A stretch of DNA of 23,646 bases from an uncultured Coxiellaceae bacterium (GCA_964466595.1 CAYXNR010000035.1:1-23646), one strand, 5' to 3'. Shown: positions 4,042-8,975, numbered from the stretch's first letter. The notes: generated by a model from the sequence alone, not told the origin. Translations and numbers: made by a program.

Positions 4042-5286
4042 ATGCCTTCTATGATGACCACTTTACCCCCTCTTAGTCCTGAAATGCAGAAACAGGGCGA
4101 GGCCATGCTAAACCACCTGGAACAGCTTATTCAAAAAGCTGGCGGTCATATTTCCTTTGCTCATTTCATGAAACATGCGCTCTATGCTCAAGACCTTGGC
4201 TACTATACTTCTCCTTTGCAGAAATTTGGGGAAACAGGTGATTTTGTTACAGCGCCTGAAATCTCGCCCTTATTTGCCAAAACACTAGCACGACAGTTTG
4301 CAGCCATTTTAAGCACTATGCCCGAAGCTGCCATCTTAGAATTAGGCGCGGGTACGGGTATTTTTGCCAAAGAGGTCATGACTGAACTGAAAGAATTGCA
4401 AGCGCTACCATCCCAGTATTATATTTTCGAAGCAAGCCCGACCTTGATTGCGCGTCAAAAGAAAGTCTTAGAAACAAGTTGCCCGCAATTTTTTTCTCGC
4501 TTCAACTGGCTTACGGAGCTTCCCGATCATTTTCAAGGTATTATTTTTGCTAATGAATGGCTTGATGCCCTGCCCGTGCATTGTTTTCGCATTGAAAATA
4601 AAACCGTTACAGAACGCTGTGTGACTTTTAAAAATAAACAATTGACTTGGAAAACAGTAGCGCCGCAAACGCAGGCCCTGCACAAAAAAGTTTTAGCGCT
4701 CATGAATCACTATGCCTGGCCGGAGGGCTATGAATCAGAAATTAATCTCTTGCTGCCTCGCTGGATAAAAACGCTCGCGAAGCTACTTGATAAGGGCGTA
4801 TTACTTTTTTTTGATTATGGCTATGAACGCGAGGAATATTATCATCCTGAGCGCTCCTGCGGGACACTGCGCGCTTATTTTCAACATCGAATGCATGCTG
4901 ATCCTTTTCTCTATCCAGGGTTGCAAGATCTCACTGCCCATGTTGATTTCACGACCGTGGTAGAACAGGCTATCTCTGCCGGCTTGGATCTAGCAGGCTA
5001 CACCACACAACAAGCCTTTCTCATCGCCTGCGGCATCGGAGATTTCGCTAACAGCTTCCCCACCTCTCAAAAAGCATATCGGCAAAACCAGGCCTTAAAA
5101 TTACTCCTCTTGCCTTCCGAAATGGGCAGCTTAATCAAGGCAGTGGCTTTTACTAAAAATTGGAATGAACCCTTAGACGGATTTTCTGGTGGGGTCAAAT
5201 CTTGTCTTCAACCTTCACCTCCCCATTATCGGGCGAAGGTTGAAGACAAGATCATATCATTACCCACATCTTTGAAAAACCCATAA
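4042..5286 (+). CDS. Class I SAM-dependent methyltransferase, MidA/NDUFAF7 (DUF185) family
   Basis: SAM-binding motif LELGAGTGIFA and MidA-like overall architecture. The last ~30 codons are encoded by the dispersed-repeat hairpin at 5193-5252, so this C-terminal extension is probably not ancestral. Confidence 0.75.
   Translation: MPSMMTTLPPLSPEMQKQGEAMLNHLEQLIQKAGGHISFAHFMKHALYAQDLGYYTSPLQKFGETGDFVTAPEISPLFAKTLARQFAAILSTMPEAAILELGAGTGIFAKEVMTELKELQALPSQYYIFEASPTLIARQKKVLETSCPQFFSRFNWLTELPDHFQGIIFANEWLDALPVHCFRIENKTVTERCVTFKNKQLTWKTVAPQTQALHKKVLALMNHYAWPEGYESEINLLLPRWIKTLAKLLDKGVLLFFDYGYEREEYYHPERSCGTLRAYFQHRMHADPFLYPGLQDLTAHVDFTTVVEQAISAGLDLAGYTTQQAFLIACGIGDFANSFPTSQKAYRQNQALKLLLLPSEMGSLIKAVAFTKNWNEPLDGFSGGVKSCLQPSPPHYRAKVEDKIISLPTSLKNP
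5193..5252. repeat. Hairpin copy of dispersed ~24-bp repeat: full inverted copy (5193-5218), 18-nt loop, truncated direct copy (5235-5252); 18-bp perfect stem
   Basis: ATCTTGTCTTCAACCTTC (5199-5216) is exactly complementary to GAAGGTTGAAGACAAGAT (5235-5252). It lies at the convergent junction of the methyltransferase and MazF genes and is read through by the methyltransferase ORF. Confidence 0.85.
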
Positions 5287-5623
5287 CCTCTGCGACTGAT
5301 CGATAAACCGCTTCCATAAAGCTTGCAGTACAATGCATTAACGGACCTTCAATGAGTCGCTTATTATCAATTGCCCGTACTTGATCAATCAATAAGTCTG
5401 ATTCCTTTTCCAAATTCTCATGTGGCTTGATGCGAACTCTTAATGGTTCTGCCTTGTTAATGAGCTTTGTGGTCAGCGGGATAATCAGCGTAGAAGGATG
5501 GCCAACGTCTAATAATGCCTGGTCTTGCACGATTAAAACGGGACGACATTTTCCTGCCTCCGTTCCACGGGAGGGATTGAGATTAGCTAACCAGATCTCG
5601 CCTTGTCTAATCTTTAGGGTCAT
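5252..5623 (-). CDS. Type II toxin, MazF/PemK (Kid/ChpB) family endoribonuclease
   Basis: N-terminus IRQGEIWLANLNPSRGTEAGKCRPVLIVQ is the canonical MazF/PemK motif. The ATG at 5623 has RBS GTGAGA 6 nt upstream; the ORF-track TTG at 5638 is probably not the start. The gene overlaps the stop of the upstream antitoxin. Confidence 0.8.
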   Translation of the reverse strand: MTLKIRQGEIWLANLNPSRGTEAGKCRPVLIVQDQALLDVGHPSTLIIPLTTKLINKAEPLRVRIKPHENLEKESDLLIDQVRAIDNKRLIEGPLMHCTASFMEAVYRSVAEVMGFSKMWVMI

Positions 5624-5843
5624 CTTCAATCTCACCAAATTCTTTATTCACTTTGATGCTTTCTTTTCTTACTAACAAACTGATCGCTTTTAACCTCTCC
5701 CTTCGTTTCATGTTTTTTATATTTTCATTCATTTGCTCGATAGCCATGCGCATATAAGCAGCCCGTGAAAGATGATTATCCTGGGCCAGGATATCAACCT
5801 CACGCAGAATCTTTTCCGGCAAGCGTATTGAAATAAGAGTCAT
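5607..5843 (-). CDS. Ribbon-helix-helix (CopG/MazE-like) antitoxin
   Basis: 78-aa protein whose N-terminal IRLPEKILREVDILAQDNHLSRAAYMRMAIEQ has the RHH beta-strand-helix pattern. It lies directly upstream of the MazF-like toxin and overlaps it, the standard antitoxin-toxin order. Confidence 0.7.
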   Translation of the reverse strand: MTLISIRLPEKILREVDILAQDNHLSRAAYMRMAIEQMNENIKNMKRRERLKAISLLVRKESIKVNKEFGEIEDDPKD

Positions 5844-5855
5844 AATGTAGTCTCT

Positions 5856-5879
5856 AATGTATTACATTTTTGTAGTATA
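5856..5879 (-). promoter_or_regulatory. mazEF-like operon promoter: -10 TATACT (complement of 5874-5879) plus perfect 6-bp-arm palindrome AATGTA-t-TACATT (5856-5868) between -10 and start codon (candidate operator)
   Basis: The palindrome overlaps the +1/leader region. This is the typical position of operators in autoregulated TA operons. Confidence 0.5.
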
Positions 5880-5939
5880 CGATGTAATTCGACGCTATGG
5901 AAGCACAGGGTGGGCGCTAGAAAATTACGAATAGAGCTA

Positions 5940-7299: not shown

Positions 7300-7305
7300 G
7301 CTCAC

Positions 7306-8850
7306 TTATTTCCGAGGTTTAGGAAGCGGAAGGTCGTCACTCCCTTTTTTGGTTTGTTGCATAGCTGTATTGAAAGCTTTTTCTGCTTTTTTGGATGCTG
7401 CTGCTTTTCTGGATTCCTTTTTTTCCTCTGTTGTGGCAAAAAGGTTATAGGTACGATGTTTAGAGTAGTTATAAGCCGTACCTACTATTACGATAGGTAT
7501 GCCTATTCCTGTACAGGCTAATGCAAAGGAAGCGACAAAGACCTTCCATCCAGCTAATTTGCATTCATTTTTATTTTCTGCTTTGATCGCTTTATCAGCA
7601 CTCACTACTGCATCGCGAACCCTTAACAGCTTTTCTGTGTTAGAATCTTTTTCTTCGTATTGTTCCAAACTTTTTGGTGCTGCACCACCAGGTTGATCCT
7701 CCTCCTCATCAAAGCCTGGCGCAGAAGGCAGAACCTGTGGTGATGGATTATCACAAGCGTCTAACACGCTCTTAAATGCCTGTAGTTGCAGATAAATCTC
7801 TTGGTTTTGAATGGATGTTTTGGAAGTTTCATCCAATTTACTGTCTGTGGTGCTCTCTGAAAAATGGTCAAGAATATCATTTAAAGCCTTGTTTTCAGCA
7901 TTGGAAAGTTCTGCTGGATTGGCTTTTCCTAGATCTACTTGCCCTAGATCTAGCCCTCCAAGGTTATTTTTATTTAATTCAATCATTTTTCTTAATAAAT
8001 TCCGAATCTGTTTAATAGCAGTAGCTTGCGATTCAAATACAATATTAGGCGCGTGAATTTTTTCAATGTTATTTCTTCTGACTATTATTGATTCAATCAT
8101 ACCATCAAAATATTCTCTATGATATTGGCCACCTTCTTTAAATTCTTTTATTACATCTTGATCTTCTTTTGGAGGGCTGGTGGTGTATATAGCACGTAAA
8201 ATATTGTCGAGTAGTTCCTCTCGATACAATCTTTTAAAAGATCTTACAAATTTATCATCATAAGCGACACCAGGGACCTTTAGTACTGTATTCAAGACAG
8301 CTGCTGGAAATTTTATAAAGAATTGTTTAAATTCTTGGGGATGTTTTGTAGAAAACACTCTTATCCAGTCGTCTTTGTTATCCCGATCATCTTTGATTTT
8401 TTTTCCTTCTAATGCTGCTGCACGCGCATAGTAATAGTTTATTGTATTATATTCATCTGGACGAATTTTATCACCGCCCATGTAGCTTTTATATAGTTTC
8501 TCATTACCTTCCCGAATTGCGAGACAATGGAAATGTAATTTCATTTGGTGATCTTCTGGCTTGGTGATACTATCTCCAATCGCCTGAGCCAAATTTTTTT
8601 TCTCATAACCCCGTTTTGAGACTACTGCTTCAAAATATTGAAATGCAAGCTCTTTATGTCCCTCATCGTAAAATACTTTCCCAAGCCATGCTAACGCATA
8701 AGGATCGCCTTTTGATGCAGATTCTTGGAAATGTTGTCTTTGACTATCTCCCGGTATTGATGTACTAAGTGTAGTATAATATTTTTTAAAATCTTCGGCT
8801 ATTTCATTATTCTTCTTAAACGCCTCTAAAACCACATCGGCTGCTGGCAT
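7306..8850 (-). CDS. Sel1-like repeat protein with C-terminal transmembrane anchor and basic tail (effector candidate)
   Basis: N-terminal GDPYALAWLGKVFYDEGHKELAFQYFEAVVSK fits the Sel1/SLR repeat pattern. A low-complexity acidic linker follows. A single hydrophobic helix WKVFVASFALACTGIGIPIVIVGTAY sits ~60 aa from the C-terminus, followed by a Lys-rich tail. RBS GAGGGG lies 6 nt before the ATG at 8850. Confidence 0.7.
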   Translation of the reverse strand: MPAADVVLEAFKKNNEIAEDFKKYYTTLSTSIPGDSQRQHFQESASKGDPYALAWLGKVFYDEGHKELAFQYFEAVVSKRGYEKKNLAQAIGDSITKPEDHQMKLHFHCLAIREGNEKLYKSYMGGDKIRPDEYNTINYYYARAAALEGKKIKDDRDNKDDWIRVFSTKHPQEFKQFFIKFPAAVLNTVLKVPGVAYDDKFVRSFKRLYREELLDNILRAIYTTSPPKEDQDVIKEFKEGGQYHREYFDGMIESIIVRRNNIEKIHAPNIVFESQATAIKQIRNLLRKMIELNKNNLGGLDLGQVDLGKANPAELSNAENKALNDILDHFSESTTDSKLDETSKTSIQNQEIYLQLQAFKSVLDACDNPSPQVLPSAPGFDEEEDQPGGAAPKSLEQYEEKDSNTEKLLRVRDAVVSADKAIKAENKNECKLAGWKVFVASFALACTGIGIPIVIVGTAYNYSKHRTYNLFATTEEKKESRKAAASKKAEKAFNTAMQQTKKGSDDLPLPKPRK

Positions 8851-8880
8851 GGTACACCCCTCGATTGTTCGATATAATAA

Positions 8881-8925
8881 AGTATAGCAGTCTTTTATTT
8901 TTTTAATTCATTATTAATCATTAAG
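8881..8925 (-). promoter_or_regulatory. Candidate promoter of Sel1 gene: -10 TATACT (complement of 8881-8886) preceded by AT-rich TTAAT/ATTAA repeats (8903-8925)
   Basis: On the coding strand the sequence reads CTTAATgaTTAATaatgaATTAAaaaaataaaagactgcTATACT. TTAA cores sit at 11-bp spacing. The gap to -10 (12-16 nt) is longer than at the SPFH promoter. Confidence 0.4.
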
Positions 8926-8949
8926 TTAGAGGTTGTGTCGTCACAGGGG

Positions 8950-8975
8950 GCGAAGGTTGAAGACAAGATTTGACC
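8950..8975 (+). repeat. Dispersed repeat copy GCGAAGGTTGAAGACAAGATTTGACC
   Basis: Same core in direct orientation to the 7276 copy. Together the two copies bracket the Sel1 gene and its promoter. The GGGCGAAGG junction is shared with the 5233 copy. Confidence 0.85.

What the first reader, a model, noticed from the sequence alone, without database searches (positions are those of the whole stretch)
5193..8975. Novel ~24-bp dispersed repeat (GTGAAGGTTGAAGACAAGATTTGA): one hairpin copy at a convergent gene junction and two direct copies flanking a Sel1-type gene like cassette boundaries
The sequence occurs four times in 3.8 kb. One inverted copy (5193-5218) and one partial direct copy (5235-5252) form an 18-bp perfect stem with an 18-nt loop. 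Direct copies lie at 7276-7299 and 8950-8975, and two of these share a GGGCGAAGG junction. The 7276 and 8950 copies bracket exactly one gene plus its promoter (the Sel1-repeat gene, 1.67 kb). That layout is what a duplicated target site or attachment site from an insertion would look like. The hairpin copy sits where two convergent genes meet. It has been absorbed into the 3' end of the methyltransferase ORF, which gains ~30 extra residues from it. The element does not resemble a tRNA 3' end, an IS inverted repeat I know of, or a CRISPR repeat. It could be a REP- or MITE-like dispersed element, a recombination site that delimits small accessory cassettes within this TA-rich islet, or a protein or sRNA binding site.
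Basis: seen in the sequence. Interest (0 to 1): 0.7.

Follow-up and report, generated by a model that had tools for sequence, protein, structure and literature searches.

The report
Palindromic repeat bounding an inserted gene islet
A 24-31 bp repeat marks the two ends and the internal joints of a 3.8 kb block of toxin-antitoxin and orphan genes inserted between two genes that are neighbours in all related bacteria, so it is most likely the end or recombination site of a small, transposase-less mobile element, a fairly ordinary kind of thing.

Summary
The repeat is real. Unit U, G(T/C)GAAGGTTGAAGACAAGATTTGA(C/G)C, has four copies: A 5192-5222 (inverted), B 5231-5252 (truncated), C 7276-7305 and D 8946-8976. 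Chance expects none. A and B form a very stable hairpin.

The key new result is comparative. In four related lineages the methyltransferase (MTase) and PTPS genes lie 60-176 bp apart. Here 3.8 kb sits between them, bounded by the inverted copies A and D and by CTGGTG/CTGGCA, an imperfect target duplication. The MTase lost its conserved last 8 codons and now reads through the repeat.

Joining A, the loop, B and the TTGACCC tip of D rebuilds a near-perfect 68-bp palindrome. I therefore favour this history: a small palindromic MITE/REPIN-like element landed upstream of PTPS, then two gene modules joined at a 22-nt core in its right arm, leaving B, C and D as direct repeats. The recombinase would act in trans.

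The main rival is a single cargo transposon bounded by inverted repeats that has spare ends.

The "Sel1" gene is an orphan with no Sel1 signal. No recombinase, tRNA or Rfam family lies nearby. The core occurs nowhere else in the public collections searched, so copy number is untested. I rate it a new member of a known kind, of moderate interest.

The parts
5192..5222 (-). Copy A of unit U (inverted). It is the left tip of the inserted block and the left arm of the hairpin, and the MTase ORF translates it.
   Evidence: (I1, I2, I9).
5223..5230 (.). Loop/spacer of the hairpin between A and B. About 12 nt (5220-5231) are unpaired or weakly paired.
5231..5252 (+). Copy B. It is a direct copy truncated after ...CAAGAT and lacks TTGACCC. 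It is identical over 22 nt to D. Proposed attL-like joint. The MazF stop codon (5252-5254, - strand) abuts it.
   Evidence: (D16).
7276..7305 (+). Copy C, a direct singlet between the convergent orphan MazF gene and the 514-aa gene. Proposed joint between two modules, or an alternative right end. It has no partner arm at DNA level.
   Evidence: (I2).
8946..8976 (+). Copy D, full length and direct. It is the right tip of the inserted block. Its outer TTGACCC completes the palindrome with A. TTGACC is a -35-like hexamer facing PTPS.
   Evidence: (I1, D16).
5186..5191 (+). CTGGTG, the left copy of the putative target duplication. It matches the first 6 nt of the conserved PTPS-upstream block of relatives.
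8976..8981 (+). CTGGCA, the right copy of the putative target duplication (4/6 identical). Homology to the PTPS-upstream block of relatives resumes here.
5253..7275 (.). Module X. It holds MazF-like toxin (5252-5638 -), RHH antitoxin (5607-5843 -), a HAD-like 250-aa gene (6015-6767 -) and an orphan MazF-like toxin (6933-7262 +).
7306..8945 (-). Module Y. It holds a 514-aa ORFan with a C-terminal transmembrane helix (7306-8850) and its upstream region. It is not Sel1-type.
4042..5286 (+). MidA/Methyltransf_28 gene. Homology to relatives ends at ...GFS (codon ending at 5187). The conserved tail LFDKRxEL* is lost and the ORF reads through A, the loop and B.
9034..9540 (+). PTPS/QueD-like gene. 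It is the right-hand neighbour of the MTase in all relatives.

Best explanation
U is the arm of a roughly 68-bp palindromic mobile element that cannot move on its own (MITE/REPIN class). The element is GGGTCAAATCTTGTCTTCAACCTTCACC, a 12-nt loop, then GGCGAAGGTTGAAGACAAGATTTGACCC. One copy landed at CTGGTG in front of the PTPS gene. The last 8 codons of the neighbouring methyltransferase were deleted, so that gene now reads into the element. Two gene modules then joined into the right arm of the palindrome by recombination at the 22-nt core GGGCGAAGGTTGAAGACAAGAT. The modules are a toxin-antitoxin/HAD-like module and an orphan membrane-protein gene. The joining left three direct copies. B is the left joint and has lost the outer TTGACCC. 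C is the joint between the modules. D is the right joint and carries the original outer tip. No recombinase is encoded in the block, so the enzyme acts in trans, or RecA acts on the short identity.

Shown: the repeats, the hairpin, the insertion relative to relatives, the coincidence of the boundaries with U copies, and the loss of the MTase tail.

Inferred: that the 68-bp element is mobile, the order of events, and recombination at the core.
For: - Four relative lineages keep ABC-permease-SDR | MTase -> PTPS -> GGDEF/EAL, with only 60-176 bp between MTase and PTPS. The window has 3.8 kb there.
- MTase homology stops at codon GFS (5187), 4 nt before A.
- The right flank of D aligns to the conserved PTPS-upstream block from CTGG onward, and the left flank of A ends in the same CTGGTG.
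- A and D are 29/31 complementary.
- B equals D over 22 nt, then identity breaks sharply.
- A + loop + B + D's TTGACCC folds as a 27-29 bp stem with one mismatch, -31.1 kcal/mol as DNA, z -9.85.
- U occurs nowhere else in the 23.6 kb window, even at 16/26 identity. It is therefore tied to the block, not scattered.
- C and D have no partner arms, and there is no subterminal similarity beyond U.
- No recombinase or transposase lies in the block or the window.
- A relative (L089) carries a different 84-bp palindromic doublet in the same MTase-PTPS spacer, plus singlets elsewhere. Such elements therefore do colonise this spot in this clade.
- Precedents: Coxiella QMITE2 palindromes overlap gene 3' ends and are split by later insertions (PMC5896051). 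LME-1 integrates through a truncated 22-bp att using a host recombinase and leaves one intact and one modified site (PMC9765430).
Against: - No second locus with U, and no empty palindrome, was found anywhere. Mobility of the 68-bp element is therefore inferred from one site.
- The target duplication is imperfect (CTGGTG vs CTGGCA).
- No enzyme is identified.
- A 22-nt identity is marginal for RecA.
- The same layout can be read as one transposon with extra ends.
- The MTase tail deletion is an extra event that the model does not explain.
Confidence: 0.4

Rival explanations
1. The block is a single cargo transposon without a transposase (a mobile insertion cassette). A and D are its 31-bp terminal inverted repeats, C is a spare internal right end and B is a stray partial end. 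The whole 3.8 kb moved in one step, using a transposase encoded elsewhere, and duplicated about 5 bp of target.
For: The inverted pair A/D sits exactly at the insertion boundaries, tips GGGTC.../...GACCC. About 5 extra nt (TGGTG/TGGCA) flank it. No transposase lies inside. Xanthomonas MICs carry effector and TA genes, often have more than two IRs or solo IRs, and sit in clusters (PMC4337579). The outward -35-like TTGACC at the tip is typical of IS ends.
Against: This model does not explain why B sits 12 nt from A in hairpin configuration, nor why B is cut exactly where its identity to D ends. No IS or transposon with these ends exists in PLSDB plasmids, phages, GTDB genomes or JGI metagenomes. 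The duplication is only 3/5 to 4/6 identical. From memory, the IR shares only GGGGTC with Tn3-family IRs and lacks their inner ...TAAG motif.
Confidence: 0.3
2. U is an ordinary REP/REPIN-type repeat of this genome. Doublets (A+B) and decayed singlets (C, D) settled independently in intergenic spacers, where they act as RNA-stabilising or terminating hairpins. Their position at the edges of the islet is secondary.
For: The doublet-plus-singlet organisation is that described for REPINs (PMC3116915). The relative L089 has two such families with the same pattern, one of them in the same spacer. Two of the three U loci lie between convergent genes. The hairpin is very stable as RNA on both strands.
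Against: None of the many other intergenic spacers of the window has a copy, even a degenerate one, yet three loci fall within 3.8 kb and two of them lie exactly on the insertion boundaries. U lacks a GTAG head and has only a weak internal dyad. No T-run follows the hairpin, and the terminator scan does not pick it up. Singlets C and D are as well conserved as the doublet, whereas the REPIN model expects singlets to decay.
Confidence: 0.15
3. The palindrome is this organism's chromosome-dimer resolution site (dif, used by XerL as in Legionellales). Modules X and Y are IMEX elements that hijacked it.
For: There are direct repeats without a recombinase gene, one joint is truncated to 22 nt exactly as for LME-1, and tandem accretion is typical of IMEX elements (PMC9765430).
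Against: The site is absent from the syntenic locus of relatives, and the 18-mer is absent from all searched genomes. It is 68 bp with a 12-nt centre, rather than about 29-30 bp with 10-12 bp arms. U has no similarity to the palindrome next to xerL on Coxiella pQpH1. GC skew is negative on both sides, with no inflection.
Confidence: 0.04
4. U is an operator or sRNA/protein binding site that co-regulates the islet genes.
For: The 18-22 nt core is 100% conserved in four copies while the flanks are unrelated.
Against: The copies lie at gene 3' ends and at the insertion boundaries, not at promoters. The RHH antitoxin has its own palindromic operator-like region upstream of its operon (sequence). 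There is no Rfam match.
Confidence: 0.05

Closest known systems
Coxiella burnetii QMITE2 / QMITE1 (Wachter et al. 2018, PMC5896051)
   Same: These are palindromic, non-coding repeats in a related intracellular gammaproteobacterial group. They sit at or overlap gene 3' ends and supply new C-terminal residues (EnhC gains 33 aa; here the MTase gets 32 new residues). They form very stable stems. The QMITE2 palindrome is a landing site that is split when other DNA (IS1111) inserts, leaving part of the element on each side.
   Different: QMITEs are 150-400 bp with about 50 copies per genome and carry a GTAG REP. U is a 68-bp palindrome with no sequence similarity, unknown copy number and no GTAG. 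The inserted DNA here carries no transposase and is flanked by 22-nt direct repeats.
REPINs (REP doublets forming hairpins) with RAYT transposases (Bertels & Rainey 2011, PMC3116915)
   Same: Two inverted copies of a unit about 25 nt long, separated by a short spacer, form a hairpin. Singlets exist alongside doublets. The location is extragenic or at gene ends.
   Different: REPINs number tens to hundreds, spread over extragenic space. They have a GTAG head and a palindromic core in each unit, and a linked RAYT gene. None of these could be shown here, and the in-window distribution is clustered on one islet.
Mobile insertion cassettes (MIC231; TnXax1-derived MICs of Xanthomonas, PMC4337579)
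   Same: Passenger genes (effectors, TA genes) lie between IS-type inverted repeats without a transposase. Extra or solo IRs and clusters occur. The target duplication is short.
   Different: The IRs of a MIC match those of an identifiable transposon, and perfect 5-bp duplications are seen. Here no parent element is known, the duplication is imperfect, and one extra copy forms a hairpin with the left end.
IMEX elements such as LME-1 at the Legionella dif/XerL site (PMC9765430)
   Same: Integration happens without an element-encoded recombinase at a palindromic host site, through a truncated 22-bp mimic. It gives direct repeats with one full and one shortened copy, and tandem accretion is possible.
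   Different: The site here is not dif-like in size, sequence, conservation or skew position.
Integron gene cassettes / attC sites
   Same: Promoter-poor or single-gene modules are separated by copies of a recombination site. TA cassettes are common. The core contains GTTGAAG, close to GTTRRRY.
   Different: An attC is a complete imperfect hairpin with R/L boxes and extrahelical bases at the end of every cassette. C and D are single arms. No IntI is present, and module X has four genes on both strands.

Membership tests
Bacterial MITE | Terminal inverted repeats | tested here: met
   A/D are 31 nt and 94% complementary, A/B 21 nt and 95%. The reconstructed palindrome has z -9.85.
Bacterial MITE | Small (<~500 bp) and non-coding | tested here: inconclusive
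   This holds only for the reconstructed 68-bp core. As it stands, the tips enclose 3.8 kb with five genes.
Bacterial MITE | Target-site duplication | tested here: inconclusive
   CTGGTG and CTGGCA flank the tips. The alignment to relatives implies about 5 extra nt, but identity is only 4/6.
Bacterial MITE | Multiple copies in the genome | not testable with these tools
   The 18-mer gives only chance coding hits in genome, metagenome and viral collections.
Bacterial MITE | Cognate IS/transposase with matching ends | tested here: not met
   There is no similar end in plasmids or phages and no transposase in the window.
REP / REPIN | Inverted doublet with short spacer forming a hairpin, plus singlets | tested here: met
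   A+B form the doublet and C and D are singlets.
REP / REPIN | Tens to hundreds of copies spread over extragenic space | tested here: inconclusive
   There is no copy in any other spacer of the 23.6 kb window, even at 16/26 identity. A genome-wide count is impossible.
REP / REPIN | GTAG head and palindromic core within each unit | tested here: not met
   U begins GGTG/GGCG. Its internal dyad is only AAggTTG-AAGA-CAAgaTT (sequence).
REP / REPIN | Associated RAYT (Y1 transposase) gene | not testable with these tools
   None is in the window. The rest of the genome is not available.
Mobile insertion cassette | Passenger genes between IS-type IRs, no transposase inside | tested here: met
   Searches show this. 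The HAD-like gene is not a recombinase.
Mobile insertion cassette | IRs shared with an identifiable autonomous element | tested here: not met
   Searches found none.
Integron cassette array (attC) | Complete attC hairpin at the 3' end of each cassette | tested here: not met
   C and D have no partner arm, and shuffles do as well in more than 70% of cases. Only A+B is a hairpin, and it is a perfect stem without bulges.
Integron cassette array (attC) | Integron integrase nearby | tested here: not met
   No integrase lies in the 23.6 kb window. A CALIN-type array would not need one.
dif / XerL site with IMEX | ~29-30 bp site, 10-12 bp perfect arms, short centre, conserved across the clade | tested here: not met
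   The site is a 68-bp palindrome with a 12-nt centre. It is absent from relatives at this locus and from all searched genomes. It is unlike the pQpH1 palindrome next to xerL.
dif / XerL site with IMEX | Located at the GC-skew inflection (terminus) | tested here: not met
   Skew is negative on both sides of the block. The caveat is that only 23.6 kb could be examined.
Intrinsic terminator | GC-rich stem followed by a T-run | tested here: not met
   The terminator scan does not report the U hairpin, and only TTT follows it on the - strand.
Sel1-repeat protein (label given to the 7306-8850 gene) | Match to Sel1/TPR-type repeat profiles | tested here: not met
   There is no Pfam hit at E<=0.001 and the best is TPR_2 at E=0.69. 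There is no NCBIfam, PADLOC or PHROG hit and no homologue at all.

The most novel reading that the evidence does not exclude
The palindrome is a dedicated landing pad for a cassette system that needs no element-encoded recombinase. Circular gene modules each carry one copy of a 20-26 nt core. A host tyrosine recombinase (for instance an XerL-like enzyme working away from dif) or an HUH enzyme inserts them one after another into one arm of the hairpin. This would resemble an integron that lacks attC hairpins and a linked integrase, and it would shuttle toxin-antitoxin and effector-like orphan genes in uncultured Legionellales-like bacteria.
Probability: 0.1. Interest if true: 0.7.

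Novelty: new member of a known kind. Interest (0 to 1): 0.35.

Why it matters
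If the reading is right, this gives a clean, datable example of how accessory genes enter a conserved housekeeping locus in an uncultured, probably host-associated gammaproteobacterium. The accessory genes are two MazF-type toxins, an antitoxin, a HAD-like gene and an effector-like orphan. They would have entered through a tiny palindromic element that also rewrote the C-terminus of a conserved methyltransferase and placed a -35-like hexamer in front of the next gene. The direct-repeat joints predict excision products that can be looked for in raw reads. That makes the question of one-step transposition versus stepwise cassette accretion directly testable. It does not, on present evidence, reveal a new class of system.

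Tried and rejected
- Genome-wide counting. The 18-mer core was scanned in genome contigs, metagenome contigs and viral contigs. All 83 outside hits are single and their flanks do not extend. Many recur as the same unrelated coding context (read by eye). The result is uninformative because the source genome seems absent or masked.
- Six-frame peptide trick to find ORFs that absorbed other copies. Only 20 candidates appeared and none scored, so the method lacks power.
- Exact-protein look-ups for the islet genes and PTPS, to find other contexts or empty sites. They returned only the same locus or nothing.
- Similarity of the hairpin and the whole block to plasmids and phages. The only hit was a distant MazF/MazE match.
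- Rfam at gathering and at E<=1, and a tRNA search. Nothing was found, so there is no tRNA or tmRNA att site.
- Degenerate partner arms for C and D, and subterminal similarity between ends. None was found. The + strand RNA fold around C (z -1.75) rests on G-U pairs and is not significant.
- Native MTase tail displaced to the far side of the block. It is not found. The only tail-like peptide (IFEKP at 5268) lies inside the MazF coding end and is probably chance.
- dif/XerL reading. Rejected on size, conservation, skew and sequence.
- Integron attC reading. Rejected.
- Structure of the 250-aa protein. The single-sequence AlphaFold model was too poor to use (pLDDT 52). A profile search instead places it with HAD-like hydrolases.
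- Context of its closest homologue (L096). It sits next to an AbiE TA pair with no flanking repeats.
- The three-frame TGA property of U has p of about 0.04 given its composition. It is noted but not used as evidence.

Full report
**Observation.**
The 22-mer GAAGGTTGAAGACAAGATTTGA matches perfectly at 5195-5216 (- strand), 7278-7299 and 8952-8973. It matches with three mismatches at 5235-5256. Shuffled sequence gave 0.00 matches. Extended, the unit U is G(T/C)GAAGGTTGAAGACAAGATTTGA(C/G)C.

I call the copies:
- A: 5192-5222, inverted.
- B: 5231-5252, direct, cut after CAAGAT.
- C: 7276-7305, direct.
- D: 8946-8976, direct.

A and B form a stem of 21 bp with one mismatch, of which 18 bp are perfect. 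The fold is -38.6/-42.3 kcal/mol with z about -7 on both strands. B and D share the 22-mer GGGCGAAGGTTGAAGACAAGAT. A is complementary to D over 31 nt (94%) and to C over 30 nt (93%). No further copy exists anywhere in the 23.6 kb window, even at 16 of 26 positions.

The structure is not an assembly artefact. A contig of a second MAG covers window 1098-5282, and a Logan contig covers 6950-9721 without a mismatch. Every joint is therefore seen in a contig from a second assembly.

**Genes.**
- 4042-5286 is a MidA-type methyltransferase (Methyltransf_28).
- 5252-5638 (-) and 5607-5843 (-) are a MazF/RHH toxin-antitoxin pair.
- 6015-6767 (-) belongs to a small family of 64 cluster representatives, remotely HAD-like by profile search against PDB sequences.
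- 6933-7262 (+) is a second MazF with no antitoxin.
- 9034-9540 is a PTPS/QueD-like gene.

The 'Sel1' label fails. No Sel1 or TPR profile reaches significance (TPR_2 E=0.69). The protein has no homologue among 5.8 billion proteins. It ends in a transmembrane helix.

No recombinase, transposase, tRNA or Rfam family is present in the block or the window.

**The decisive comparison.**
The window is a whole contig of an uncultured gammaproteobacterium. Its nearest relatives are 56-67% identical in the methyltransferase, and Aquicella is at 49%.

Four related lineages (L086, L087/88, L089-91, L092/93) keep the order ABC ATPase, permease, SDR | MTase -> PTPS, then GGDEF/EAL and so on. In them MTase and PTPS are only 60-176 bp apart. 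In the window 3.8 kb lies between them.

The protein alignment shows that homology of the MTase stops at ...GFS (codon ending at 5187), four bases before A. The tail LFDKRxEL*, conserved in all eleven relatives, is replaced by 32 residues read from A, the loop, B and beyond.

On the other side, the relatives share a conserved block in front of PTPS: CTGGTG(A/G)G..., TTATTGTATTATTTGC, CACACTTAACGATG. The sequence right of D aligns to it from CTGG onward. The sequence left of A ends in the same CTGGTG.

The inserted block is therefore 5192-8976, to within a base or two. Its two tips are inverted copies of U. It is flanked by CTGGTG/CTGGCA, which I read as an imperfect duplication of about 5 bp of target. 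The MTase tail and spacer were lost in a separate deletion.

**What the internal copies say.**
B is identical to D up to CAAGAT and then diverges completely. D continues with TTGACCC, which is exactly what A's outer end GGGTCAA needs as a partner.

Joining A, the loop, B and D's TTGACCC gives a 68-bp palindrome with a single mismatch. It folds at -31.1 kcal/mol as DNA, z -9.85. This is what reciprocal recombination between the right arm of a chromosomal palindrome and a U copy on incoming circular DNA would leave:
- B as the left joint.
- D as the right joint.
- C as the joint between two modules, X (5253-7275) and Y (7306-8945).

The T/C variants at the second position of U fit either order of arrival (sequence). 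C and D have no partner arms, and nothing beyond U is shared between the ends.

**Context in the clade.**
One relative (L089) has its own palindromic repeat families. One family is a GTAG-headed unit, present as a doublet and a singlet. The other is a 40-nt unit whose 84-bp doublet sits in the very same MTase-PTPS spacer, with singlets at other gene ends. Two other relatives have none. Lineage-specific small palindromic elements thus colonise this spot.

**Best explanation and rivals.**
I favour (0.4) a two-step history. A 68-bp MITE/REPIN-like palindrome landed at CTGGTG. Modules X and Y then joined at the 22-nt core in its right arm, catalysed in trans by an unidentified recombinase or possibly RecA.

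- Main rival (0.3): one cargo transposon without a transposase, a mobile insertion cassette. A and D would be its terminal inverted repeats and C a spare end. This has good precedent in Xanthomonas (PMC4337579) but leaves B unexplained.
- Plain REP/REPIN family with a terminator or stabiliser role (0.15): fits the doublet/singlet pattern (PMC3116915). It does not fit the clustering on one islet, the coincidence with the boundaries, the missing GTAG head or the missing T-run.
- dif/XerL with IMEX (0.04): mechanistically the closest analogue, because LME-1 uses a truncated 22-bp att and the host enzyme (PMC9765430). The site fails on size, conservation, GC skew and sequence.
- Integron attC: fails because C and D are single arms.
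- Regulatory binding site (0.05): has no positive support.

**Comparison with known systems.**
It works most like the Coxiella QMITE elements. Those overlap gene 3' ends, donate C-terminal residues, and are split by later insertions into their palindrome (PMC5896051). It also resembles MICs and IMEX elements.

Membership in any of these families cannot be claimed. No parent transposon, copy number, RAYT or dif properties could be shown, and several defining features were tested and not met (see the membership table).

**Limits.**
The core 18-mer has no genuine match outside this locus in GTDB representative genomes, JGI metagenomes, IMG/VR, PLSDB or phage records. The rest of the source genome appears not to be in those collections, so the genome-wide copy number stays unknown.

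No closely related strain was available to show X or Y present or absent on its own.

**Verdict.**
The cassette or mobile-element interpretation is partly supported and sharpened: the whole 5192-8976 block is the insertion. The Sel1 label is wrong. The finding is a new sequence family of a known general kind, of moderate interest (0.35). There is a small chance (about 0.1) that it represents a cassette-accretion system using a palindromic landing pad without a linked recombinase.

Noticed in passing
window 9541-11473: This is a second variable spot. A 592-aa SPFH/Band-7-domain gene (9654-11432) starts with three 30-nt tandem repeats (9652-9765) and lies between PTPS and the GGDEF/EAL gene. Relatives L087, L089 and L092 have nothing there, and L086 has a different, DAO-like gene. 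No U copy flanks it.
   Followed up: partly
window 19565-23429: Three paralogous, repeat-rich genes lie on the - strand (322, 606 and 310 aa). Their coding and upstream segments are duplicated about 1.9 kb apart at 83-96% identity. Pfam signal is weak or absent. In relatives this position holds other genes.
   Followed up: no
window 19356-19426: Three tandem copies of a 23-nt unit (CTTGAATCTAGCGCTTTGTYATC) lie between the Rce1-like gene and the paralogous gene family.
   Followed up: no
window 8976-9033; L086 11224-11272; L087 6362-6411; L089 11294-11340; L092 4088-4143: A block of about 50 nt in front of PTPS is conserved across genera that are only 56-67% identical in protein: CTGGTG..TTATTGTATTATTTGC..CACACTTAACGATG. 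It may be a promoter or leader element. There is no Rfam match.
   Followed up: partly
window 9026-9037: The ATG that aligns with the PTPS start of relatives is followed by an in-frame TGA (ATG CCC CTG TGA). The open frame starts at GTG 9034. This suggests a 1-nt indel at the 5' end of PTPS, just downstream of the insertion.
   Followed up: no
L089 1834-1909, 9930-9966, 6049-6088, 11191-11274, 11906-11923: A relative carries two REP/REPIN-like families. One is a GTAG-headed 37-nt unit. The other is a 40-nt unit (TGGATTGCTTC...CTCGCAATGACAG). Both occur as hairpin doublets and as singlets at gene ends.
   Followed up: partly
window 6768-7262: The second MazF-like toxin (6933-7262) has no recognisable antitoxin gene upstream, only a 13-codon remnant-like ORF. 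It may be an orphan or a decaying toxin.
   Followed up: no
window 9581-9605 and 23521-23545: An AT-rich 25-nt inverted repeat pair (88% complementary) lies in two intergenic regions 13.9 kb apart. It may be chance or a shared regulatory motif.
   Followed up: no
window 7276-7299 (unit U): U carries TGA in all three forward frames and no stop in any reverse frame. The probability is about 0.04 given its composition. An intact doublet would therefore stop any ORF entering from either side within the second arm.
   Followed up: yes
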